64,000 bases of DNA from a virus. A program made the translations under genes and the position numbers. This document shows, in pieces, positions 5,204 through 52,888 of this stretch (positions within the stretch are counted from its first letter, which is position 1; each line of letters begins with the position of its first letter). The DNA lies in IMG/VR virus record IMGVR_UViG_3300009179_000175, positions 42,759 to 106,758 of that record; one strand, 5' to 3'. The notes below the pieces were generated by a model that saw only the letters and a program-made list of their open reading frames with translations, was not told where the DNA came from and made no database searches.

Positions 5204-5564
5204 TGGTGGAGGTGGCGGGATTCGAACCCGCGTCCGAACAGTCTTTCACGAAGGGTTCTACGAGTGTAGTCCATCTCCTACTGGGCACCCTGTCTGATGG
5301 AACGAGCCTTGAGTGTCAGGAGTGACCGTATTTTCTTCGTCTAGGCTTTAGGTCTCTCTCTTCTCCTAGACTAGCCTACACTAGCGGCGTTGGCATTGGG
5401 TTACTGCAGGCGTTCGCCCGCCAACGGATCAAGCGGCTAAGGCTTGATCGTAAACTGCGTCGTTAGATGCGTCGTTTACTTTGAATTTGAGTTGATTTAA
5501 GTGGCACTCACCACTACTCGCTGTCTTAGTTACTCATCCTATCCGTCGAAACCTGGGCACCCCC
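5204..5564 (-). ncRNA. ssrA: tmRNA (361 nt), tag frame ending ...ASNDAVYDQALAA*
   Basis: 5' GGGGGTG pairs with 3' CACCTCC-A-CCA with a G3.U pair; T-arm GCGGG-TTCGAAT-CCCGC; internal frame GCA TCT AAC GAC GCA GTT TAC GAT CAA GCC TTA GCC GCT TGA. Confidence 0.95.
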
Positions 5565-18495: not shown

Positions 18496-19683
18496 TCAAA
18501 ATCGAGCAAAAGACCATTCGGTTAAAGAGTCCCCTGCTGCCGAATAAGATCGAATATTGAACTCCTGATCCATCTTATCGATGAACTGATCGTAATCAGT
18601 GATAATAAATCTACCATCGCGATCGATGTATTTAGCGTTCTCGCCTTTTACGATATGATCGCAGCAGGTTAAGACTTTATACTTGGTGGTATTCTTGGGG
18701 TGAGAAACCTGATCCCATCGAATAGCACGTTGTATGTCATACAGGTTAAGCGGTGCCAACCTCAGAGTTCCTTGGAACTCGTTCGGTACGTTCGTTTCAT
18801 CCGACATCGAGATACCGGGTAACGAATGATTTTCATCGGGAAGAGGACCGGCACCGTGTCGGGTTGTGTAGCAGCGGCTAAGATAGTAGACATGAGTAGG
18901 TACCTGATTAAACCAGCCCAGACTCTTCATCATCTTACCGATGTTTCTAAAACCGGTATTGGAGCGCGTGACGTTTGGAAACTCACCGAACTCTTGATCG
19001 AGCATCAACCCCTGTCCGTTCTCGAAGATAACGGTCTCATAATTCTTAAAAGTGTCTTTCCAAGTCTCCGTCTTCTCGCAGAATTCGTTGCAGTCATCGA
19101 TGAACATCTCCAGCATCTCCTTATGAATGAAGAAGTCGTGCGCTTGCTCCATAAAAGAGTTGATAGGTTTGGGCAGACGATTTTGACACCAGGTTCTGAT
19201 CTCCGTCAGCCTCTTGTAATTGGTGCCGGTGGTAATGTCTCTGTAGGAGAGAGTCAGTCCTCTTTCCACTCTTTCCAAGGTAACACCGAATCCGGTTCCC
19301 GTAGATCCATGACGACCGTCGCCCCTACTCATCTCCAAGCATTGGTTGAGCAGCATATCGAAGGGGGTAGTAACCTGAGCTTGAGACTCGATATAGACTT
19401 TGGGGTTCAACCCGGCGTTTCTACCTTTCGTCTCCTTCAGATAGAGCATCGGATTGACGACCGTATTTCGAGTGAAGAGTGTCGGGGCTCCTCTCAGAGT
19501 ACCGGAGCCGAGATGACTGAAGATGCGCCTCTTATCACCAACCACGACGGTATGCCCCACTTGAGCGCCACCGTTGTTTCTGACGACTATAGGCTTCTCA
19601 CTGGTTCTTACCAGATAGTCCGTCCACATCCCCTTGCCTTCATCACCATACCCTGCTCCGATTACGGCTTTCACTTGCATCAT
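18496..19683 (-). CDS. purA: divergent adenylosuccinate synthetase-like protein
   Basis: IGAGYGDEGKG, RNNGGAQVGHT, FENGQGLMLD, SRCYTTRHGAGP; keeps the Asp of GDEGKG, so not PurZ-type. Confidence 0.8.
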   Translation of the reverse strand: MMQVKAVIGAGYGDEGKGMWTDYLVRTSEKPIVVRNNGGAQVGHTVVVGDKRRIFSHLGSGTLRGAPTLFTRNTVVNPMLYLKETKGRNAGLNPKVYIESQAQVTTPFDMLLNQCLEMSRGDGRHGSTGTGFGVTLERVERGLTLSYRDITTGTNYKRLTEIRTWCQNRLPKPINSFMEQAHDFFIHKEMLEMFIDDCNEFCEKTETWKDTFKNYETVIFENGQGLMLDQEFGEFPNVTRSNTGFRNIGKMMKSLGWFNQVPTHVYYLSRCYTTRHGAGPLPDENHSLPGISMSDETNVPNEFQGTLRLAPLNLYDIQRAIRWDQVSHPKNTTKYKVLTCCDHIVKGENAKYIDRDGRFIITDYDQFIDKMDQEFNIRSYSAAGDSLTEWSFARF

Positions 19684-30585: not shown

Positions 30586-30672
30586 TGGTGGGTGCCCGAG
30601 GATTTGAACCTCGAAGGGACGAGCCAACGGATTTACAGTCCGCCCCCGATACCGTTACGGGACTAGACACCC
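30586..30672 (-). tRNA. tRNA-Tyr(GTA)
   Basis: Class II cloverleaf, loop CT-GTA-AA. Confidence 0.9.
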
Positions 30673-37536: not shown

Positions 37537-38181
37537 TTAGCATTTCTCAAGTTGATTTGGAATCCAAGATTTCGTCCAATGTTCTTTGGTCTGGACATGA
37601 CCCTTTCTAACCCATTTGGCAACATGGGTGGACCAATCGCTGTATCGAATCGGATCGGTCACTCGTACCACATAGCCTTCTTGGGTTTCGCGATTCAGTT
37701 GGTAACCCTTATAGCGGATCTGATCTTCATCCCAAGTTCCACGCCATAAGACAGGTACATGGATAAGACCGAGCAAATCGCACCATTCGGTAGTTTCGTC
37801 CCAACTCAACGCGGTGTTCTGTTCATCGAAGATGGCGAATACTTCTATCCATCGCTTCAGGTTCTCGTAACGAATGGAGTGCTGGGCATAGAGGTTCTCA
37901 CCTACAACCCTCCATCCTTCGGGTAAATCGCGGCACTTCTCGGCCCACATCGCTTTGATTACATCTTGCCAGGCATGAGAAGTGCCGCTTAAACTACGAG
38001 CATGAATGCCACCATCGTGATAGAGTGAAGTGTTTTCGCCATCGCGCTTTTCAGTGACGATCACCTCCTTGTCGAGGAAAGGCTCCAGTGATTTGAGGAT
38101 TTTGTCGTCACCATGGAGTTCTTCAGTCCATGGAAGATGATAAGTTCGCGGATGCTTGTGCTTCATAGCCGGGCTCCTCAC
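37537..38181 (-). CDS. RNA ligase family protein
   Basis: YPRT.HLPW, TEKRDGEN (KxDG), VVGENL, FAIFD, EGYVVR, KWVR. Confidence 0.8.
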   Translation of the reverse strand: MRSPAMKHKHPRTYHLPWTEELHGDDKILKSLEPFLDKEVIVTEKRDGENTSLYHDGGIHARSLSGTSHAWQDVIKAMWAEKCRDLPEGWRVVGENLYAQHSIRYENLKRWIEVFAIFDEQNTALSWDETTEWCDLLGLIHVPVLWRGTWDEDQIRYKGYQLNRETQEGYVVRVTDPIRYSDWSTHVAKWVRKGHVQTKEHWTKSWIPNQLEKC

Positions 38182-42256: not shown

Positions 42257-43537
42257 TTAGTATTTATTTTTCCAGTGGTACGCCTTAATCTGACAGTATT
42301 GAGGCACATAGCCATCTCTATACGACGAACGGTTGAGGTACTCGTCCATGATAGCCATCGTCCTGACGGCTCGCATAAAGAACCCACCATATAAGGTGTA
42401 GAACGGGAACACGATACACGACGGCATATCTCTCTTCAGATTATTGCTATGAAACAGAACCGTCAGCATCTGAAAGAACCCGAACACCATGTATGCCATG
42501 AATACCGACACCGAAAGGTTTCTAAGCACATCCCCCGGCTGAGAGTAGATGAGACCTGCCAACATGATCCAGAAACTGATCGTACACCACACCGAAAAGA
42601 AGAACGTATCCCACCAATAGATGAAGTTGGTCAATCTGAAGTTGTTCGTGAACAGCGAATAGTTCAAATGCTTCCTTAGATGTATGCGAACGATGCCCAT
42701 ATCCCATCTCATCCTCTGCTTCCAGAGCTGCTTCCAGGTAACGGGTACATCGGTGAAGCACTCGGCTTCCGGTACGAAAACGATGTTATAACCGATTTTC
42801 CTGATTCGGATCGTGATGTCCGAGTCCTCCGAGGGACCGACATCCATACCGTATCCTCTTCTGAAGATGTCGGTCCTAAAGGCACCGAACGCGCCCGATA
42901 TAATCGATAGAGTCCCAATCTTCGCGGACAGCGTCCTACCCACCAAAATCGAAATCAGGTACTCGTAAGACTGGAGCAAAGTGCAAAGACTGTCGTTCGG
43001 GTTTCTGACCAAGATAGCGCCCGATGTTCCACCCACCATCGGGTCTCTGAACGGTTGAACCAGCTTGTAGATGGCATTGGGCCCGAAGGTAGAGTCGGAA
43101 TCCACGACTGCCACGATCTCTCCGGTGATGTAAGGATAGGCGAAGTTCTGTGCAGTACTCTTTCCGCCCCCTCTGGCTCTCTTTAAGACAATCACATCTT
43201 TATGAGTTTCGGCGAACTTGCTGGCCAGCTCGAACATGTCATCCGTCGACCCATCATCGATCACGATGATTTGAAGGAATGGATAGCTACCGTGAAGCGA
43301 TTCCAGGCATTGAACAATCGTCCCCGACTCATTCAATCCTGGAATCAGGATGGTTACATCGGGTAGATGTGCTGGTTGCTTGGGCTTTCTTCCGAACGAG
43401 GCGAAGAACTCCCAGAAGACCAGCATGATGTTCATGAACAGATAGCGCGGGCCATCTAACAGAAGCATCCCCGAGAACGTCAGCAAGTATTGCTCCCAGG
43501 AGAACCCCGATAACCAATGAATGGCATCCTGTATCAT
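42257..43537 (-). CDS. processive GT2 glycosyltransferase (PgaC/IcaA/hyaluronan-synthase-like)
   Basis: IPGLNE, IDDGSTD, GKS.A, VDSDS, ISGAFG.FR, SED, QRMRW, N- and C-terminal TM helices. Confidence 0.9.
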   Translation of the reverse strand: MIQDAIHWLSGFSWEQYLLTFSGMLLLDGPRYLFMNIMLVFWEFFASFGRKPKQPAHLPDVTILIPGLNESGTIVQCLESLHGSYPFLQIIVIDDGSTDDMFELASKFAETHKDVIVLKRARGGGKSTAQNFAYPYITGEIVAVVDSDSTFGPNAIYKLVQPFRDPMVGGTSGAILVRNPNDSLCTLLQSYEYLISILVGRTLSAKIGTLSIISGAFGAFRTDIFRRGYGMDVGPSEDSDITIRIRKIGYNIVFVPEAECFTDVPVTWKQLWKQRMRWDMGIVRIHLRKHLNYSLFTNNFRLTNFIYWWDTFFFSVWCTISFWIMLAGLIYSQPGDVLRNLSVSVFMAYMVFGFFQMLTVLFHSNNLKRDMPSCIVFPFYTLYGGFFMRAVRTMAIMDEYLNRSSYRDGYVPQYCQIKAYHWKNKY

Positions 43538-43947
43538 GTCGCAGTCTCTTCTGATTTGATCTTGATTAGATACTGCTGTGGTTCCATCATGGTCGCCTCG
43601 TCCATCAGAAAACGAGTTTCGCAGTTGATGCACTGCCCGATCATCTTCGTGTTATTACCGGTCCAACCGCAATCCATGCACCTTTGAAGTCCGTGAGAAA
43701 CGTCATAATCGCAGTTGACGATAAGATCCTCTTTATGACATTTGGGACAGGTTAAACTACCCCTCTCCTTATTGATAACGTAAGTTCGAAGATAGTCGAC
43801 GTTGCCGCAAGCATAGTGATGTACCAGCAGATCGGGTTTGATGTTGCTGCTACTGCATTGAGGGCACCCGGGTCTAAAAGTAGGCAATCCGCCGCATTCC
43901 GGGCAGGTTAAAAACTTATCACTCATCAGGTATGGCACAGAAATCAT
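43534..43947 (-). CDS. multi-zinc-ribbon protein (TackOD1-like)
   Basis: CPECG, CPQCSS, HYACG, CPKC, DYD, CMDCG, CINC. Confidence 0.6.
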   Translation of the reverse strand: MISVPYLMSDKFLTCPECGGLPTFRPGCPQCSSSNIKPDLLVHHYACGNVDYLRTYVINKERGSLTCPKCHKEDLIVNCDYDVSHGLQRCMDCGWTGNNTKMIGQCINCETRFLMDEATMMEPQQYLIKIKSEETAT

Positions 43948-43962
43948 AATGTATTCACCTTC

Positions 43963-45213
43963 TTACTTATCAGTATGAGTATGAGCGTGAGAATCGGGAA
44001 CTGCCAGTGATGCCAGGTTCAACGACTCTTTCACGATGTCCGTAGGGTTAGGTCTCTTGATAACGCTACCGACCACGAAGGGTTGATAGCCACCTTGAGG
44101 TTCGAGGTAAACCTTCACCAGCTTCTGATTAGCGAGATAGTTGCTCTTGATTTGATCGGGCGGTGAGGTAACATCTTTAGAGATTGATGTGACTTCGGTG
44201 CTCACCATCTTACCCAACGAAGGCACCATCACTTGTACCTGATTGCCGACCTTCGGTAGCCTGTCGGAAGGGTCGTAGTAAAGAACCAGATTGGCGGTGC
44301 CGTCCACGATTAAGGATAGAATAGGATCGGCTCCAATCAACTCTCCCGGTCTCTTCTTGATCGAGGAAACGATACCGGAATACTGACTATAGATTTCGCC
44401 TTCCTTTATCTTATCGGTGTATCGACTCTTCTCATTGTTGAGATACTCGATCTTCGCTTCGATCGGTTTCAGTGCCACGTCGCTTCTCTGCTCTCTCGAC
44501 AGACTCGCCAGGCGATCTTGCAAAGACTTCAAGGACGCTTCTTTGCCCCTTAAGGCATAGGCAACGGAGTTGGCTTGAGATCGAGCGGAATCTACTTCCT
44601 GGGCACCGGCGGCGTCCATAGCCTTCAGTCTCGCATAGCGCGCTGCCTCTCCTTTCTGGAATGCCAGCTTGGACCTGAGTTCACCGATGGTTGCCGAGGT
44701 GTCGGAGATCTGCCCTTCAATCTGACGAATTAGATCCAAACGGTTGAGCTCGTTCTTCGCCAGCTCTTCTCTTTTAGAATCCAATTCTGCTTTAGCGATT
44801 TCGATCTCGTCGGTCAGCTTGTCCAACTGCCTACGGTCTTCGGTAGAGACGACTTGAGCCAGAAAGCTACCCGCCTTGACGATCGAGCCTTCGGCTACGT
44901 CGAGCTTTTGAATGACGCCCGGGAGGGTGGTATAAACTCCGACGATGTCGGACTCCACTACACCGAAGGAGTCGTATCGTAGATATGAATTCCATAGGCT
45001 ATAACCGCCATAAGACAGGAGGGCAGTTATCAGTGCAAATGCTACTTTCCTGCCTTTTCGAGGAGGAATGGAAGAAGGCGCGGTGTAGTTTAAAGAAGTC
45101 TGGGGTGCGGCGCCTAATTCTGGAATCGGTGTAATCACACCCGTCTTGGTCGCTTCCAAGTAGGTGTTCTGCGTAAGATGGTAATCGTTTTCTGGAAAAC
45201 GCTTGAATATCAT
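43963..45213 (-). CDS. HlyD-family membrane fusion protein
   Basis: TM anchor, PGVIQKLDVAEGSIVKAG lipoyl-like motif, long coiled coil, IYSQYSGIV...PGE. Confidence 0.85.
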   Translation of the reverse strand: MIFKRFPENDYHLTQNTYLEATKTGVITPIPELGAAPQTSLNYTAPSSIPPRKGRKVAFALITALLSYGGYSLWNSYLRYDSFGVVESDIVGVYTTLPGVIQKLDVAEGSIVKAGSFLAQVVSTEDRRQLDKLTDEIEIAKAELDSKREELAKNELNRLDLIRQIEGQISDTSATIGELRSKLAFQKGEAARYARLKAMDAAGAQEVDSARSQANSVAYALRGKEASLKSLQDRLASLSREQRSDVALKPIEAKIEYLNNEKSRYTDKIKEGEIYSQYSGIVSSIKKRPGELIGADPILSLIVDGTANLVLYYDPSDRLPKVGNQVQVMVPSLGKMVSTEVTSISKDVTSPPDQIKSNYLANQKLVKVYLEPQGGYQPFVVGSVIKRPNPTDIVKESLNLASLAVPDSHAHTHTDK

Positions 45214-48641: not shown

Positions 48642-48706
48642 GAGGGACGAAGTTAAGAGACATTTCGGGTTTCAAGGTTGAAATGTAGTCCCATTAGCAT
48701 TCCCTC
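48642..48706 (-). ncRNA. Y-RNA-like element 1 (short)
   Basis: GAGGGA-ATGC-N4-GGGACTACAT...TCTC...TTCG-TCCCTC. Confidence 0.7.
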
Positions 48707-48715
48707 ATGATAGGG

Positions 48716-48846
48716 TGGGCAACGATTAACGAAGAGACGCGCGGCTCTTGCTCTACCAGCTGAGCTACCTCGACGGTTGCACATCGAGGGTGAGATTCGA
48801 ACTCACGACCCAGGGCTCCAATGTAGTCCGCTTCTGCATTTGCCCA
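48716..48846 (-). ncRNA. Y-RNA-like element 2 with permuted tRNA domain
   Basis: Closing TGGGCA/TGCCCA; T-arm GTGAG-TTCGAAT-CTCAC; acceptor CCTCGAT/GTCGAGG closed by a loop; D-arm GCTC-AGCTGGTA-GAGC. Confidence 0.85.
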
Positions 48847-48867
48847 AAGTTTTTTATCTATTTATGG

Positions 48868-48942
48868 TGGTGGCGACCGATTGAATCGAACAATCTTTCG
48901 TCTGGTTATGAACCGTGTGAGGAAGCCATCCTCCCCGTCGCC
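48868..48942 (-). tRNA. degenerate tRNA(CAT)
   Basis: Acceptor, D and T arms pair; anticodon stem has 3 mismatches. Confidence 0.55.
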
Positions 48943-48947
48943 ATATG

Positions 48948-49280
48948 TTAGGTTGCTCTAAACTCTTCGATGAAGAGGTTGACTGTATCGACACCGATGT
49001 AGTGAGAGATGTGAGCCCTTGCTCGTACGAAGTTCTGCTTTACGAACTCGACCGTTTCTTCTTTGATACCCGCAGCCGTGAAGTCGTCGATATCTCTGAT
49101 GCAGAGCATCATGATTCGTGCGGACTGCATGATCTGTCCGAATAGCAGGTTGATGTCGTTGTTCAAGTATTGCTTGAGTGATGGGTGAGTCGTTTTGGCA
49201 TCGTTCAGAACATAGTACAGGCTTTCGATCGGACCGAATTTCCTTCGGGCATCACGATAGATGTCGATATAGTTGACCAT
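48948..49280 (-). CDS. hypothetical protein
   Basis: Start MVNYID; the track extension overlaps an ncRNA. Confidence 0.55.
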   Translation of the reverse strand: MVNYIDIYRDARRKFGPIESLYYVLNDAKTTHPSLKQYLNNDINLLFGQIMQSARIMMLCIRDIDDFTAAGIKEETVEFVKQNFVRARAHISHYIGVDTVNLFIEEFRAT

Positions 49281-49301
49281 AGCAATCACCTCGATGTAAG
49301 G

Positions 49302-49411
49302 ATGCTTGACGAAAATGTAGAGACGTTTACCGGCTACCCAGCCCAAGATGAGAGTCGAACTCATACCGTTTCGTTACAAGTGAAATGTAGTCCCTACGAG
49401 CATTCAAGCAT
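49302..49411 (-). ncRNA. Y-RNA-like element 3 with T-arm and reduced D-like segment
   Basis: Closing ATGCTTGA/TCAAGCAT; GAATGC-N5-GGGACTACAT; ATGAG-TTCGACT-CTCAT. Confidence 0.8.
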
Positions 49412-49415
49412 GTTC

Positions 49416-49489
49416 TGGTTCACTCCCAGGGGCTCGAACCCCGATTCAAGGATTCAAAGTCCTTTGTCCTACCATTAGACGAGGAGTGA
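49416..49489 (-). tRNA. tRNA-Gln(TTG)
   Basis: Cloverleaf, CCA. Confidence 0.9.
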
Positions 49490-49495
49490 GTTGTT

Positions 49496-49569
49496 TGGCT
49501 TCGAGTCAAGGATTCGAACCTCGATACACTGCTTCAGAGACAGTGGTCCTGCCGTTAGACGAACTCGAA
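49496..49569 (-). tRNA. tRNA-Gln(CTG)
   Basis: Cloverleaf, CCA. Confidence 0.9.
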
Positions 49570-49577
49570 CTTGTTAG

Positions 49578-49934
49578 TTATTTAGGGTAGACGTTATACA
49601 GAGCTTCATTGCGCTCATTGAACCTAAACCGGTACGGCTTGGCGCTCATTTCCTCGATAATCACTTTTAGCATTTTTTTAGTATGATCTTCACCACAAGA
49701 GGGTTGAAACACTTTTAAAGTGAAAAACCGTTGGTTAATGTTCAACACGGCATTACCTTCACCGTAAACCCGGATGAAGCAGGCTAACAGCCGCTGCATA
49801 TCTGCAATTTGCGTGGACTTCCAGAAAACCTGATTTTTCTCGTCATTCTCTTGACGGTCTTGCAGGGCTGCCCACGCACAGGGGGCTTTACGAGATTTGA
49901 TTTCGGTTTCGGAGGAAGAGGCTACGGTTTTCAT
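49578..49934 (-). CDS. hypothetical early protein
   Basis: Start MKTVA after a promoter cassette. Confidence 0.6.
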   Translation of the reverse strand: MKTVASSSETEIKSRKAPCAWAALQDRQENDEKNQVFWKSTQIADMQRLLACFIRVYGEGNAVLNINQRFFTLKVFQPSCGEDHTKKMLKVIIEEMSAKPYRFRFNERNEALYNVYPK

Positions 49935-49968
49935 TTCGGGCTCCAGGTTTGGCTTACTTGATGTGCTT

Positions 49969-50036
49969 AGTATAGCAGACCAGGAGCCAAAAGTCAAGCC
50001 GTTCAAGAAAAATATTTCCACGAAAGTGCGACGTAA
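49969..50036 (-). promoter_or_regulatory. sigma70 early promoter cassette (mosaic of other copies)
   Basis: TTGACT-N17-TATACT. Confidence 0.85.
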
Positions 50037-50040
50037 CAAT

Positions 50041-50098
50041 ATCCTGACAAGTAGGTATGAGACATGATCGCCATGTAGTCCCATTGGCATTCAGGATG
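50041..50098 (-). ncRNA. Y-RNA-like element 4 (minimal)
   Basis: ATCCTGA-ATGC-N5-GGGACTACATG...CATGTCTC...CTTG-TCAGGAT. Confidence 0.75.
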
Positions 50099-50108
50099 TA
50101 ATCAGAAA

Positions 50109-50190
50109 AGGCAACGAGATAGATAAAGATGTTAGCTTTAGATTTATCGATTAAGATATATTTAATGTAATCCTTATCAGCATTTGCCTT
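50109..50190 (-). ncRNA. Y-RNA-like element 5
   Basis: AAGGCAA-ATGC-N5-AGGATTACAT...TTGCCTT. Confidence 0.7.
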
Positions 50191-50199
50191 GTAAAAGGT

Positions 50200-50304
50200 T
50201 AGGTGGACGAAGGGGTCGAGATTCGGGGCGGTTCTCACCGATCCCCTTTTGGGCGTCGTAAGCCCAGACAATGGTAGATGTAATCCCGATGTGCATTCCA
50301 CCTA
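50200..50304 (-). ncRNA. Y-RNA-like element 6
   Basis: TAGGTGGA-ATGC-N5-GGGATTACAT...AATCTC...TTCG-TCCACCTA, two inner hairpins. Confidence 0.75.
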
Positions 50305-50318
50305 TAAAACTATTTATA

Positions 50319-50451
50319 GACGACAAGATCGCCGAGTTCATTTTTCGCGCTCTGCCACGTTGAGCTACACCGGCGTTGAAGTGGTGCCGGCGATGGGGTT
50401 CGAACCCATATCCTCGTCATTTACAGTGATGTAAACCCAACAGCATTCGTC
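50319..50451 (-). ncRNA. Y-RNA-like element 7 with permuted tRNA domain retaining ACCA
   Basis: GACGAATGC...; ATGGG-TTCGAAC-CCCAT; CGCCGGC-ACCA-linker-GCCGGTG; GCTC-AACGTGGCA-GAGC; CTTGTCGTC. Confidence 0.85.
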
Positions 50452-50459
50452 TTTAATCG

Positions 50460-51386
50460 TTAGATCAGTTCTGCAATACCTTCTTCGAAGGTTACGCCTG
50501 ATCGAAATCCAAGTCGGTTAGCCGCCATCTTATGGTTGCCACAAGAGTGCTTGATGTCACCTTCTCTCGCTTCCGCGTAAACCGGTAGAGGATTGCGTGG
50601 ATATTTATGATGAAGAAGCGACAGCAGATAGTTCAGTGTCAGAGATCTTCCGGTGCAAACATCGATATTGCCTTCTTCGTTCTCATCGGACATCAGAGCC
50701 AATCGGTTAGCCCTGGCCACATCTTTGACGTGGATGAAATCGCGTGTCTGTTCGCCATCTCCGTAAACCGTGACACCCTCACCTTTCTTATACTTATCCG
50801 AGAAGATGGAGATCACACCTGAGTAGGAGGAAGAAGGATCTTGTCTCGGACCGTAGACGTTGAAGTATCGCAAGCAGGTTTGGCTAAACCCGTAGCAGGA
50901 GGCGTATCCCTTAATCAGAGTCTCCGATGCCAGCTTGGAGACCGCATAGGGAGATAGCGGATTCGGGTTGTTATCCGGATCACCATAAACCGATGCCGAG
51001 GACGAGAACACCAGCTTCTTGAGCTTGTGCTTACCGCACAAGAGCGCGACGTTATTGACCGCCTTCACGTTGAACTCGAAGTTCAGCCCGGGTTTCTCGA
51101 AGCTTTCAGGAACGCTTACGAGCGCCGCCAGATGCAGAATTCTCGAGATGTGGAAAGTTTCGAAAAGGTAACCCTCAAAGAAGTATTCCATGGTATAACT
51201 TCGGCAATCGACCGGCATGAAGCTGAATCGCGGATGATCGATAATCGCATCCAAGTTTTCCAGCTTGCCTGTTCGTAGGTTATCGATCCCCACGACAGAG
51301 TAACCCGCATTCACCAATTCTTCGCAAGTATGAGATCCAATAAACCCGGCAGCACCGGTTACCAAGATACTTTCATTCGTGGGCAT
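50460..51386 (-). CDS. NAD-dependent epimerase/dehydratase (UDP-sugar 4-epimerase-like)
   Basis: LVTGAAGFIGS, HLAA..SV, FSSSASVYG, YAVSK, LRYFNVYGPRQ, QTRDFIHV. Confidence 0.92.
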   Translation of the reverse strand: MPTNESILVTGAAGFIGSHTCEELVNAGYSVVGIDNLRTGKLENLDAIIDHPRFSFMPVDCRSYTMEYFFEGYLFETFHISRILHLAALVSVPESFEKPGLNFEFNVKAVNNVALLCGKHKLKKLVFSSSASVYGDPDNNPNPLSPYAVSKLASETLIKGYASCYGFSQTCLRYFNVYGPRQDPSSSYSGVISIFSDKYKKGEGVTVYGDGEQTRDFIHVKDVARANRLALMSDENEEGNIDVCTGRSLTLNYLLSLLHHKYPRNPLPVYAEAREGDIKHSCGNHKMAANRLGFRSGVTFEEGIAELI

Positions 51387-51592
51387 CAGGCGTCTCCAGA
51401 AGTGAAGATTGTAATTCAAAGGTATTGCTATCATGAAATATGTCGGATAGCTGAGCGAGTCTCGACTCGGCGCGGAACTTATCCAAATGAACTTCGGCTG
51501 CTGCCAGTTCGCCGGTTCGATTCGAGCGACAGAGAATAACATAACAGATTTGCAGACCCATAATCTCGATCTCAAGTTGACAATGAATAAGG

Positions 51593-51722
51593 ATGAAGTA
51601 ACGAAATCGATGAGATGTTTTGGAGCTCGTGCTCTACCATTGAGCTACAACCGCCAGGGCGGCAGGGAGGAATCGAACCCCCGTCTCGAGCTTGGATGTA
51701 ATCCCACCAGCATTTACTTCAT
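51593..51722 (-). ncRNA. Y-RNA-like element 8 with permuted tRNA domain
   Basis: Closing ATGAAGTAA/TTACTTCAT; GCTCG/CGAGC; GGGGG-TTCGATT-CCTCC; CTGCCGC/GCGGTTG; GCTC-AATGGTA-GAGC. Confidence 0.85.
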
Positions 51723-52063
51723 TTGATTATCTTGCAGCCGTCTTTCTTCAACTGCTCGCAGACGGCATAGAACATGTCGTTAGGGATTTCGACACAGATG
51801 GTTTTGAACTTCTGATTCTTTCTCCACTTCCTGATGACCGCCTCGACGCTCGCCGAGTTTTCCTCGGACGGTATGTCGCTGAAGTAGATGACTCCGCTTT
51901 CGATGGTCACATTCGCCTTAGGGTCGATGTTATCGAAATCATCATCGATTTCTTGACCGTCGACAGATATAAGCATATCATCGTGCCAAACATTGGGCAC
52001 CCAGACACTGGAGTCGTTGTAGAACGCATTCCACTCTACACCTTTCATTTTCACGGCAAGCAT
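51719..52063 (-). CDS. hypothetical protein
   Basis: 114-aa ORF. Confidence 0.6.
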   Translation of the reverse strand: MLAVKMKGVEWNAFYNDSSVWVPNVWHDDMLISVDGQEIDDDFDNIDPKANVTIESGVIYFSDIPSEENSASVEAVIRKWRKNQKFKTICVEIPNDMFYAVCEQLKKDGCKIIK

Positions 52064-52086
52064 CTCCTGGGACGATTGAAAAACGT

Positions 52087-52160
52087 GGACCGACGAGAAT
52101 TGATGAGTTTTTTACGGTTTTGATTAGCAGTCAAATGTAAACCCACCGAGCATTCGGTCC
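52087..52160 (-). ncRNA. Y-RNA-like element 9
   Basis: GGACCGA-ATGC-N5-GGGTTTACAT...AACTC...TCGGTCC. Confidence 0.75.
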
Positions 52161-52175
52161 TTAAACCTTATAATT

Positions 52176-52255
52176 TGGCGCGGCTGGAGGGACTCAAACC
52201 CCCATGTTTTCAATTAACCTTTCTACAGGTTCGTAGCCTGAGGGTATACAGCCGC
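52176..52255 (-). tRNA. rearranged tRNA-like gene, anticodon ACG (Arg), no canonical D-arm
   Basis: GCGGCTG/CAGCCGC-G-CCA; CAGG-CTACGAA-CCTG hairpin 8 nt after the acceptor; 24 nt to T-arm. Confidence 0.65.
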
Positions 52256-52264
52256 AGAATAAAA

Positions 52265-52331
52265 AGAGTTGACAAGAAGTGATGAATCATCGTACATGGT
52301 TTGAAATGTAGATCCATCGAGCATTCAACTC
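52265..52331 (-). ncRNA. Y-RNA-like element 10
   Basis: GAGTTGA-ATGC-N5-GGATCTACAT...CTTG-TCAACTC. Confidence 0.75.
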
Positions 52332-52341
52332 AAACTTGATT

Positions 52342-52418
52342 GGTCGGCGTACAAGGATTCGAACCTTGGACCCCCTGCTCCCAAAGCAGGTGCTCTAACC
52401 AGACTGAGCTACACACCG
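52342..52418 (-). tRNA. tRNA-Pro(TGG)
   Basis: Canonical cloverleaf. Confidence 0.95.
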
Positions 52419-52423
52419 AAAAT

Positions 52424-52499
52424 TGGTCTCCATGGCAGGATTCGAACCTACGTCCCCGCGCCCCAAACGCGGTGCTAAACCAAGCTCAGCTACACAGAG
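52424..52499 (-). tRNA. tRNA-Pro(TGG), second copy
   Basis: Cloverleaf, loop TT-TGG-GG. Confidence 0.85.
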
Positions 52500-52505
52500 A
52501 TTGAC

Positions 52506-52579
52506 TGGCTGAGGAGCGGGAATCGAACCCTTCATCTTGATAAACCGTCAAGCGCGCTCACCAAGAGCGATACTCCCCC
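52506..52579 (-). pseudogene. degenerate tRNA (loop CG-GTT-TA, Asn-like)
   Basis: Mismatched 1-72 pair, 3-bp T-stem, CCA present. Confidence 0.5.
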
Positions 52580-52589
52580 GTTGTAAAAG

Positions 52590-52657
52590 AGTCGACAAGA
52601 GATGACAAGACACGTTTCAACGCCTAAGGTAGATGTAGTCCTGTCGAGCATTCGACT
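52590..52657 (-). ncRNA. Y-RNA-like element 11
   Basis: AGTCGA-ATGC-N5-AGGACTACAT...CTTG-TCGACT. Confidence 0.8.
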
Positions 52658-52661
52658 TGTT

Positions 52662-52737
52662 TGGTAGCGGGTAGAGGACTCGAACCTCTCTGGACAGGCT
52701 TATGAGACCTGTAAGCTCACCCGAACTTGAACCCGCA
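52662..52737 (-). tRNA. tRNA-Met(CAT) with 1.72 mismatch
   Basis: Loop CT-CAT-AA; T1.T72 mismatch (initiator-like) but lacks three anticodon-stem GC pairs. Confidence 0.75.
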
Positions 52738-52743
52738 ATCGTT

Positions 52744-52817
52744 TGGTACCTCGTTCTGGAATCGAACCAGCATCCGCTCCTTGTAAGGGAGAAATTCTAC
52801 CATTAAACTACCGAGGC
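52744..52817 (-). tRNA. tRNA-Val(TAC)
   Basis: Cloverleaf, CCA. Confidence 0.9.
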
Positions 52818-52821
52818 TTTG

Positions 52822-52888
52822 AATCCGACAAAGATTAGTGAGACTGTTGGTCATAGGAAGTGATGTAGTCCCACAGAGCATTCGGATT
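52822..52888 (-). ncRNA. Y-RNA-like element 12
   Basis: AATCCGA-ATGC-N5-GGGACTACAT...GTCTC...TTTG-TCGGATT. Confidence 0.8.

What the first reader, a model, noticed from the sequence alone, without database searches (positions are those of the whole stretch)
48642..52888. Array of 12 Y-RNA-like ncRNAs interleaved with tRNA genes
Seen: twelve elements (48642, 48716, 49302, 50041, 50109, 50200, 50319, 51593, 52087, 52265, 52590, 52822) share closing stem-AATGC-N4/5-RGG(A/T)(C/T)TACAT ... (G/A)TCTC or AACTC ... (C/T)TT(C)G-closing stem. Closing stems all differ yet pair, and the inner helix covaries (GGGAC/GTCTC, GGGTT/AACTC, GGGATT/AATCTC). Elements 2, 7 and 8 insert a full permuted tRNA domain, element 3 a reduced one, and the rest simple loops. 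Known (recalled): bacterial Y RNAs bind Ro60/Rsr through a stem with a GNCGAAN(0-1)G 5' motif, and YrlA carries a tRNA-like domain; typical bacterial rsr loci have only one or two. Inference: a greatly expanded phage Y-RNA repertoire. No TROVE gene lies in this window, so the partner is elsewhere in the genome or host-encoded.
Basis: partly seen in the sequence, partly recalled or inferred. Interest (0 to 1): 0.8.

Follow-up and report, generated by a model that had tools for sequence, protein, structure and literature searches.

The report
Twelve phage Y-RNA genes among tRNAs
A large T4-like freshwater phage packs twelve different small RNA genes of the Y-RNA type (the RNA partners of the ring-shaped Ro60 protein) between its tRNA genes, which ties for the largest set I found, yet the sequenced half of its genome has no Ro60 gene.

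Summary
Exactly twelve elements lie on the minus strand at 48642-52888, and none elsewhere in the 111.7 kb record. Each has a closing stem of 6-9 bp ending in A-U, then AUGC, an inner helix of 7-9 bp with an invariant G.U wobble, then UACAU, a variable module and a 3' loop ending U(C/U)G.

Elements 2, 7 and 8 match Rfam YrlA over its full length (55.9, 41.4 and 40.7 bits; E 5e-11 to 1e-6). These scores are below the gathering score of 69.

A model built from the nine short elements finds the three tRNA-bearing ones. It also finds 190 more copies beside Ro60/Rsr genes in 53 of 76 other large-phage loci, all 190 on the Rsr strand. Covariation is strong: 96% of cells pair, against 35-54% in slid controls.

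The reading as an expanded Y-RNA repertoire is therefore supported. Twelve ties the largest array found; the median is 3.

This lineage has no adjacent Rsr. The record has no TROVE, vWA_Ro60 or DUF2828 gene, but it is only about 52% complete. Four near-complete Rsr-less phages carry a single such RNA, so a host partner is plausible.

No RNA or binding evidence exists. The scan noted similar arrays before on other DNA.

The parts
48642..48706 (-). Y-like element 1, short (65 nt), hairpin module
   Evidence: R1 51.3 bits; R2 42.9 bits; fold
48716..48846 (-). Y-like element 2, YrlA type with a permuted tRNA-like domain (T arm, closed acceptor stem, D arm)
   Evidence: Rfam YrlA 55.9 bits, E 5e-11, model positions 1-114. 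Found by R1, which was built without it, at 29.5 bits
49302..49411 (-). Y-like element 3, handle plus a T-arm-like hairpin and a short hairpin. Its ortholog L036:7103-7209 is 81% identical
   Evidence: R1 65.6 bits; YrlA 15.9 bits
50041..50097 (-). Y-like element 4, shortest (57 nt)
   Evidence: R1 52.9 bits
50108..50190 (-). Y-like element 5, A/U-rich module, 9 bp inner helix
   Evidence: R1 61.0 bits; fold
50200..50304 (-). Y-like element 6, two-hairpin module that is not tRNA-like. Its ortholog L036:6014-6120 is 74% identical
   Evidence: R1 56.0 bits
50318..50452 (-). Y-like element 7, YrlA type. The acceptor 3' strand is followed by ACCA inside the closing loop
   Evidence: Rfam YrlA 41.4 bits, E 8e-7; R1 29.3 bits; sequence
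51593..51722 (-). Y-like element 8, YrlA type
   Evidence: Rfam YrlA 40.7 bits, E 1.3e-6; R1 40.2 bits
52087..52160 (-). Y-like element 9, short
   Evidence: R1 70.2 bits
52266..52331 (-). Y-like element 10, short
   Evidence: R1 70.1 bits
52590..52657 (-). Y-like element 11, short, with a strict GNCGAAUG motif
   Evidence: R1 61.8 bits; weak YrlB match of 18.9 bits, E 5
52822..52888 (-). Y-like element 12, short. Orthologs L028:1525 (78% identical) and L036:4681 (76%)
   Evidence: R1 66.2 bits
49416..49569 (-). Two tRNA-Gln genes, 4 nt upstream of element 3 in the direction of transcription
   Evidence: ARAGORN; Rfam tRNA
52341..52499 (-). Two tRNA-Pro genes between elements 11 and 10
52662..52817 (-). 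tRNA-Val and tRNA-Met between elements 12 and 11, with 4 nt spacers on each side

Best explanation
The twelve elements are genes for Y RNAs, the small non-coding RNAs that dock onto the Ro60/Rsr ring protein.

Each has the same docking handle: a closing stem whose last pair is A-U, unpaired AUGC, a 7-9 bp helix with a fixed G.U wobble, unpaired UACAU, and a 3' loop ending U(C/U)G. Each carries a different module on top. Three modules are circularly permuted tRNA mimics (YrlA type), one is a lone T-arm-like hairpin, and eight are simple or double hairpins (YrlB-like in design).

Inferred: they are transcribed with the neighbouring tRNAs and small ORFs from the minus strand. They are probably released by the tRNA-processing enzymes that cut the flanking tRNAs, since spacers are only 4-13 nt.

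Inferred from the family: the handle binds the outer face of a Ro60/Rsr ring. The variable module gates the ring or tethers it to a partner such as PNPase. A set of twelve would then let one ring serve several substrates or partners during infection. This fits a phage heavily invested in tRNA supply and RNA repair (35 tRNAs, a tmRNA, one Rnl1-type and two Rnl2-type RNA ligases).

The Ro60 partner is not in the sequenced 52% of the genome. It is either in the missing half or supplied by the host.
For: Shown:
(1) There are twelve copies, against about 0.01 expected by chance. A clean score gap separates them from everything else in the record.
(2) Elements 2, 7 and 8 align end to end to Rfam YrlA RF02553 with E 5e-11, 8e-7 and 1e-6. 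The alignment shares AAUGC and CUAC with the model consensus.
(3) A model built only from the nine short elements finds the three YrlA-type ones, so all twelve share one handle.
(4) Across 103 distinct sequences, 96% of cells pair, against 35-54% when partners are slid. There are 443 double-sided changes, and 14 of 15 pairs covary. The A-U closing pair is 103/103 and the G.U wobble 93/103. The unpaired AUGC and UACAU are 97-100% conserved, the pattern expected of a protein contact.
(5) The G.U wobble is 12/12 in the window, so the structure is specific to minus-strand RNA.
(6) Linkage: phage proteins with TROVE + vWA_Ro60 domains lie 16 nt to 3.6 kb from such elements, on the same strand, in 12 of 12 Rsr-bearing records. 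In a separate set of 76 Rsr loci, 53 have hits, and all 190 hits are on the Rsr strand.
(7) The array is syntenic in the relatives L036 (10 elements) and L028. Individual paralogs are kept at 74-81% identity while paralogs within the array are only 35-74% alike, so each copy is maintained.

From papers: YrlA and YrlB are bound by Rsr in Salmonella and M. smegmatis. Rsr-linked YrlA genes occur in 22 phages (PMC4201824). Thermus phage phiLo Ro60 binds two phage Yrl RNAs and host PNPase (PMC12135203).
Against: No Ro60-type gene is in the 111.7 kb record: TROVE, vWA_Ro60 and DUF2828 all find nothing, and a profile of phage Rsr proteins finds nothing at E<=10. In every Rsr-bearing record examined the RNAs lie within 3.6 kb of the gene.

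The YrlA scores are below Rfam's gathering score of 69 bits. The nine short elements do not reach any Rfam family.

The strict GNCGAAN0-1G motif is present in only 2 of 12.

None of the 76 Rsr loci comes from a close relative of this phage.

Binding is inferred from homology and gene linkage only.
Confidence: 0.8

Rival explanations
1. The elements descend from Y RNAs but work without Ro60 in this lineage. They could be decoys for tRNA-directed host nucleases or tRNA-modifying and processing enzymes. They could also be structured punctuation that directs processing and stabilises the long tRNA/mRNA transcripts.
For: No Ro60 gene is in the record, nor next to the array in three contigs of the lineage. 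The elements abut tRNAs with 4-13 nt spacers. The phage carries three RNA ligases, typical of conflicts over tRNA cleavage. M. smegmatis YrlA is an RNase P substrate (PMC4201824).
Against: The unpaired handle nucleotides (AUGC, UACAU, U.UG) are as strictly kept here as in Rsr-linked copies. Mere punctuation or tRNA decoys would not need that. Nine of the twelve have no tRNA-like part at all.
Confidence: 0.12
2. The copies are relics of an Rsr/Y-RNA cassette whose protein gene was lost. They are transcribed passively and are no longer functional.
For: Rsr is absent where other phages have it adjacent.
Against: All twelve keep full pairing and the invariant nucleotides. The array is kept in the relative L036, whose proteins are only 40-75% identical, with one-to-one orthologs at 74-81%.
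Confidence: 0.04
3. The elements are a DNA-level repeat: a recombination or homing site, a miniature mobile element or a protein-binding operator.
For: Multiple dispersed copies lie in intergenic DNA.
Against: The stems differ in sequence but keep pairing through compensatory changes. The invariant G.U wobble (plus further G.U pairs) would be A.C mismatches on the other strand. All copies, and all 190 in other phages, are on the coding strand.
Confidence: 0.02

Closest known systems
YrlA (Rfam RF02553): tRNA-like Y RNAs of Salmonella Typhimurium, Mycobacterium smegmatis and mycobacteriophages (Chen et al. 2014, PMC4201824)
   Same: Shared features: a closing stem from the two ends; a 5' CGAAUGC-type motif at an internal loop; a second helix followed by CUAC; and a permuted tRNA domain in the order T arm, closed acceptor stem, D arm. 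Elements 2, 7 and 8 give significant full-length CM matches.
   Different: Scores are below the curated threshold. There are twelve copies rather than the few reported per genome in that paper (355 RNAs in 276 genomes). They are interleaved with tRNA genes. No rsr lies within 4 kb or anywhere in the record. Nine copies lack the tRNA domain.
YrlB (Rfam RF02565): the short second Y RNA of Salmonella and M. smegmatis
   Same: It has the same design as the nine short elements: an Rsr-binding handle plus a small stem-loop, with no tRNA mimic.
   Different: There is no meaningful CM match (18.9 bits against a gathering score of 97, E 5). The likeness is in architecture only.
Thermus phage phiLo Ro60 with Yrl1 and Yrl2 (PMC12135203)
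   Same: These are phage-encoded Y-like RNAs with a CGAA motif in an internal loop of a stem-bulge-stem. They are bound by a phage Ro60 and assemble with host PNPase.
   Different: phiLo has two RNAs directly upstream of its Ro60 gene. Here there are twelve, with no Ro60 gene in the record.
Rsr-linked Y-like arrays in uncultivated large phages
   Same: They have the identical handle, sit among tRNA genes, and hold up to 12 copies.
   Different: Those arrays start 16 nt to 3.6 kb from an Rsr gene on the same strand. None of those phages is a close relative of this one.

Membership tests
Y RNA, YrlA subfamily (Rfam RF02553; Chen et al. 2014) | Significant match to the YrlA covariance model over its full length | tested here: met
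   Elements 2, 7 and 8: E 5.4e-11, 8.1e-7 and 1.3e-6, model positions 1-114.
Y RNA, YrlA subfamily (Rfam RF02553; Chen et al. 2014) | Score at or above Rfam's gathering threshold (69 bits) | tested here: not met
   Scores are 55.9, 41.4 and 40.7 bits. I therefore call them homologs forming a divergent phage subfamily, not curated-threshold members.
Y RNA, YrlA subfamily (Rfam RF02553; Chen et al. 2014) | tRNA-like domain: T arm, acceptor-like stem closed by a loop, D arm, in permuted order | tested here: met
   Met for elements 2, 7 and 8 (alignment; folds). Element 3 is partial. The other eight lack it.
Bacterial/phage Y RNAs in general | The 5' and 3' ends form a stem with an internal loop that carries the 5' motif GNCGAAN0-1G | tested here: inconclusive
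   The stem and loop are present in 12 of 12. The consensus of 103 sequences reads G-N-C-G-A-A-U-G-C. In the window the strict motif is present in 2 of 12, CGAAUG in 4 of 12 and RAAUGC in 12 of 12.
Bacterial/phage Y RNAs in general | Encoded within about 4 kb of a Ro60/Rsr gene on the same strand (criterion of Chen et al. 2014) | tested here: not met
   No TROVE, vWA_Ro60, DUF2828 or Rsr-profile hit in the 111.7 kb record. The criterion is met by homologous elements in other phages: 12 of 12 Rsr-bearing records, and 190 of 190 hits in 53 of 76 Rsr loci.
Bacterial/phage Y RNAs in general | Bound by Ro60/Rsr in cells or in vitro | not testable with these tools
   This needs co-immunoprecipitation or a gel-shift assay. 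The complex predictor here takes no RNA.
YrlB (Rfam RF02565) | Match to the YrlB covariance model | tested here: not met
   The best match is element 11 at 18.9 bits against a gathering score of 97, E 5.
tRNA (Rfam RF00005) | Cloverleaf in standard order with an anticodon arm | tested here: not met
   ARAGORN calls none of the twelve. Only sub-threshold tRNA hits lie inside elements 7 and 3 (25.6 and 24.9 bits against 29). The domain order is permuted.

The most novel reading that the evidence does not exclude
This T4-like phage lineage carries a twelve-member Y-RNA array but no Ro60 gene of its own. On this reading the RNAs act on the HOST's Rsr, either retargeting it (with PNPase) to phage purposes or soaking it up. 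That would make Y RNAs a phage weapon that can travel without the protein. The four near-complete Rsr-less phages that each carry one such RNA would be the minimal form of the same strategy.
Probability: 0.35. Interest if true: 0.75.

Novelty: new variant of a known kind. Interest (0 to 1): 0.6.

Why it matters
Y RNAs are usually discussed as one or a few regulators per Ro60. Why they are modular, and what their variable halves do in bacteria, is still largely open.

A natural library of twelve diverged modules on one invariant handle gives a direct experimental route. The same thing recurs in dozens of large phages next to Rsr. One could swap modules, pull down partners, and ask which RNAs or nucleases each one brings to the ring.

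Phages can also carry the RNAs without the protein. That would add Ro60/PNPase RNA surveillance to the host systems that phages manipulate with RNA alone. It also links Y RNAs more tightly to tRNA supply and repair during infection.

For annotation, these genes are invisible to standard pipelines: they score below Rfam thresholds and are not called as tRNAs. The handle model built here finds them cleanly.

Tried and rejected
- Expression: no RNA holder is listed for the stretch. The runs labelled metatranscriptomic are probably DNA, and their short contigs fall on coding and non-coding parts alike. Nothing can be said about transcripts.
- Promoter and terminator scans are at chance level.
- Search for the missing half of the genome. 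Neighbouring contigs add about 1.7-6.3 kb at the left end by my estimate and hold no Rsr. Look-ups from the right end found nothing. The syntenic relatives G004 and G007 have no Rsr and, by my alignment, span only parts already covered.
- Record completeness: the gp23 and portal searches found nothing, in keeping with CheckV's 52% estimate. The gp23 control matched nothing anywhere, so that blank proves little.
- A distant 305 kb relative (G041) has a divergent TROVE-like ORF but no handle match.
- Nearest named phage: Myxococcus phage Mx1 has the closest named Rsr (43.6% identity), inside a tRNA cluster. It has no R1, R2 or YrlA hit within 10 kb.
- Host identification via the epimerase gene failed.
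- Other RNA-repair partners in the record: no RtcB and no CCA-adding enzyme.
- The conserved 110-aa ORF inside the array (48948-49280) has only 8 homologs, all without Pfam domains (its own scans). It folds confidently (pLDDT 90.6) as a helical bundle with no informative PDB match.
- The neighbours of the single Y-like elements in Rsr-less phages share no common gene.
- Megablast of the region against deposited phages found no match.


Full report
SETTING. The window is bases 42759-106758 of a 111,756-base IMG/VR virus record that CheckV rates 52% complete. All 35 tRNA genes and a tmRNA lie on the minus strand, as do most long ORFs. The record encodes a T4 gp5-type baseplate hub, an Rnl1-type RNA ligase and two Rnl2-type RNA ligases. 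Searches for a gp23 capsid or a T4-type portal found nothing, in keeping with a fragment. The same DNA occurs in wetland, freshwater and subsurface metagenomes from several studies.

THE OBSERVATION. Read on the minus strand, twelve elements share one plan. They lie at 48642-48706, 48716-48846, 49302-49411, 50041-50097, 50108-50190, 50200-50304, 50318-50452, 51593-51722, 52087-52160, 52266-52331, 52590-52657 and 52822-52888. The plan is:
- a closing stem of 6-9 bp whose last pair is A-U;
- unpaired AUGC plus 0-2 nt;
- an inner helix of 7-9 bp ending GGRNY, paired to RNYUC, with a fixed G.U;
- unpaired UACAU;
- a variable module;
- a 3' loop ending U(C/U)G, then the 3' strand of the closing stem.

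The core pattern occurs 9 times, against 0.01 expected. A covariance model made from the nine short elements (R1) scores them at 51-70 bits. It also finds the three long elements that were left out of it, at 40.2, 29.5 and 29.3 bits. The next hit in 64 kb has E 1.3. The remaining 48 kb of the record has none. A second model (R2) was built from 110 sequences, 98 of them from other phages. It scores all twelve at 40-61 bits, with the next hit at 12 bits. So there are exactly twelve.

STRUCTURE AND STRAND. On the alignment of 110 matches (103 distinct) the two helices pair in 96% of cells. The figure is 35-54% when the 3' partners are slid by 1-3 columns. Of the 15 pairs, 14 show changes on both sides, 443 cells in all. 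No shuffle of 500 reaches the observed covariation score. The alignment is fitted to the model, which favours pairing, but the slid controls share that bias. Within the window, the closing stems of the twelve use different sequences at every position except the last A-U. The G.U wobble is present in 12 of 12, and in 93 of 103 in the family. It would be an A.C mismatch on the plus strand, so the fold belongs to minus-strand RNA. The unpaired AUGC and UACAU are 97-100% conserved across the family. Conservation of that kind is expected of a protein-contact surface, not of a mere hairpin.

WHAT IT IS. Elements 2, 7 and 8 match Rfam YrlA (RF02553) over model positions 1-114 with 55.9, 41.4 and 40.7 bits (E 5e-11, 8e-7, 1e-6). 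These are significant but below the curated 69 bits. The printed alignment of element 2 shows the AAUGC and CUAC of the YrlA consensus. It also shows the T arm, a loop-closed acceptor stem and the D arm in YrlA's permuted order. Element 3 keeps only a T-arm-like hairpin. The other eight carry one or two plain hairpins. The published Rsr-recognition motif is GNCGAAN0-1G, near the 5' end (PMC4201824). It matches the family consensus GNCGAAUGC. In the window it is strictly met in only 2 of 12, with CGAAUG in 4 and RAAUGC in all.

INDEPENDENT TEST BY GENE LINKAGE. An exact 16-base version of the motif was scanned over IMG/VR and gave 41 loci. Thirty of them hold R1 matches at E <= 0.001. Twelve of those records encode a 522-569 aa protein with TROVE and Ro60-type vWA domains. 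In all twelve, the nearest element is on the same strand, 16 nt to 3.6 kb from the gene.

I then collected 76 loci of this Rsr clade with 10 kb flanks. R1 finds 190 matches in 53 of them, and every one is on the Rsr strand. Counts per positive locus have a median of 3. Thirteen loci have five or more. The maximum is 12 (L122, the same phage as L014), where the RNAs are also interleaved with tRNA genes.

So the handle is a marker of Rsr loci in large phages. The window's array ties the largest set seen. In the papers I could search, phage and bacterial loci are described with few Y RNAs: 355 YrlAs in 276 genomes (PMC4201824) and two in Thermus phage phiLo (PMC12135203). I found no description of arrays.

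WHAT IS DIFFERENT HERE. The record has no Ro60-type gene. Pfam TROVE, vWA_Ro60 and DUF2828, and a profile of seven phage Rsr proteins, all find nothing in six frames. By coordinates the record extends about 91 kb on one side of the array and 16 kb on the other.

The array is syntenic in two related fragments: L036 (ten elements) and L028. Flanking proteins there are 40-75% identical, and there is again no adjacent Rsr. Single paralogs have recognisable orthologs: element 3 at 81%, element 6 at 74%, element 12 at 76-78%. Paralogs within the array are only 35-74% alike. The copies are therefore old and individually maintained. None of the 76 Rsr loci belongs to a close relative of this phage.

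Four near-complete phage genomes (two at 100% with terminal repeats, one at 98%, one provirus at 91%) carry a single strong R1 match and no TROVE gene. Y-like RNAs can therefore travel without the protein. I cannot decide between an Rsr gene in the unsequenced half and a host Rsr. My rough odds are 35-40% phage-encoded elsewhere, 35-45% host-encoded and the rest neither. The accessory and tRNA region, where other phages keep Rsr, is in the sequenced part.

LIKELY MECHANISM. Shown: sequence family, structure, strand, and homology to YrlA and to Rsr-linked RNAs.

Inferred:
(i) Co-transcription with tRNAs and small ORFs, and release by the tRNA-processing nucleases. Elements sit 4 nt from tRNA-Val, tRNA-Met and tRNA-Gln and 9-13 nt from one another. 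M. smegmatis YrlA is an RNase P substrate (PMC4201824).
(ii) Docking of the handle on a Ro60/Rsr ring.
(iii) Use of the twelve different modules as gates or tethers. The D. radiodurans and Salmonella Y RNAs tether Rsr to PNPase, and phiLo Yrl RNAs assemble phage Ro60 with host PNPase (PMC4201824, PMC12135203).

The phage's tRNA set, tmRNA and three RNA ligases suggest the system serves tRNA and rRNA quality control, or RNA turnover, during infection.

RIVALS. A Ro60-independent role (decoy or processing punctuation) is possible given the missing gene. It does not explain why the unpaired handle nucleotides are kept as strictly as in Rsr-linked copies. Relics are unlikely because of full pairing and conserved orthologs. 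A DNA-level repeat is contradicted by the compensatory changes, the G.U pairs and the absolute strand bias.

VERDICT. This is an expanded, tRNA-interleaved, Rsr-unlinked variant of a known RNA class. Earlier notes of this scan describe similar arrays on other DNA: ten Y RNAs beside Ro60 in a groundwater giant phage, and seven in another large phage. I did not test those genomes.

Noticed in passing
window 48864-48945, 52176-52255, 52505-52585 (all minus strand): Three tRNA-like genes inside the array that ARAGORN and the Rfam tRNA model do not call. The first two have a paired acceptor stem, a T arm and an encoded CCA end but odd D/anticodon regions. The third has a G where U33 is expected. 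The folds are only weakly better than shuffles (z -1.3 to -2.2).
   Followed up: partly
window 50318-50452 (element 7): The permuted tRNA domain keeps ACCA directly after the acceptor 3' strand, inside the loop that closes the acceptor stem. Cleavage there could yield a two-piece tRNA-like RNA with a CCA end.
   Followed up: no
window 18496-19683 (minus strand): A 395-aa ORF matches phrog_1211, the PurZ-type adenylosuccinate synthetase (E 4.6e-55). The phage may replace adenine by 2-aminoadenine in its DNA.
   Followed up: no
genome 23577-24668, 35772-36314 and window 37609-38070 (minus strand): One Rnl1-type (PF09511) and two Rnl2-type (PF09414) RNA ligase genes lie in one phage. No RtcB and no CCA-adding enzyme is in the record.
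   Followed up: partly
window 5204-5564 (minus strand): A phage-encoded tmRNA (129 bits) with tag peptide DASNDAVYDQALAA.
   Followed up: no
window 30589-30672 (minus strand): An extra tRNA found by Rfam (36.8 bits) but not by ARAGORN.
   Followed up: no
genome 26615-27946; window 42257-45213 (minus strand): A TolC-like outer-membrane efflux protein, a HlyD-type membrane-fusion protein and a GtrB-like glycosyltransferase are encoded by the phage. This points to a Gram-negative host.
   Followed up: no
window 48948-49280 (minus strand): A 110-aa ORF embedded in the array is kept at 56-78% identity in 8 homologs, none with a Pfam domain. The model is a confident helical bundle (pLDDT 90.6) with no informative PDB match.
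   Followed up: yes
L067 (Myxococcus phage Mx1, OR576727.2 46915-68561): Mx1 encodes the nearest named Rsr (43.6% identity) in the middle of its tRNA cluster. Neither the handle models nor Rfam YrlA find a Y RNA within 10 kb, so its Y RNAs, if any, are of another type.
   Followed up: partly
L065/L066 (G041, 305,782-bp phage with terminal repeats): A distant relative (43% identity in a 610-aa structural protein) has a divergent 475-aa TROVE-like ORF (E 1.8e-13 to the phage Rsr profile) and no handle match.
   Followed up: partly
L020, L033, L035, L031: Four near-complete phage genomes of 47-76 kb have no TROVE gene, yet each carries one strong Y-handle match (45-54 bits). The contexts are varied and share no common neighbouring gene.
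   Followed up: partly
window 58308 to beyond the window end (genome 101066-109354, minus strand): A giant 2762-aa ORF with internal repeats. It matches a large ORF in L013 three times over.
   Followed up: no
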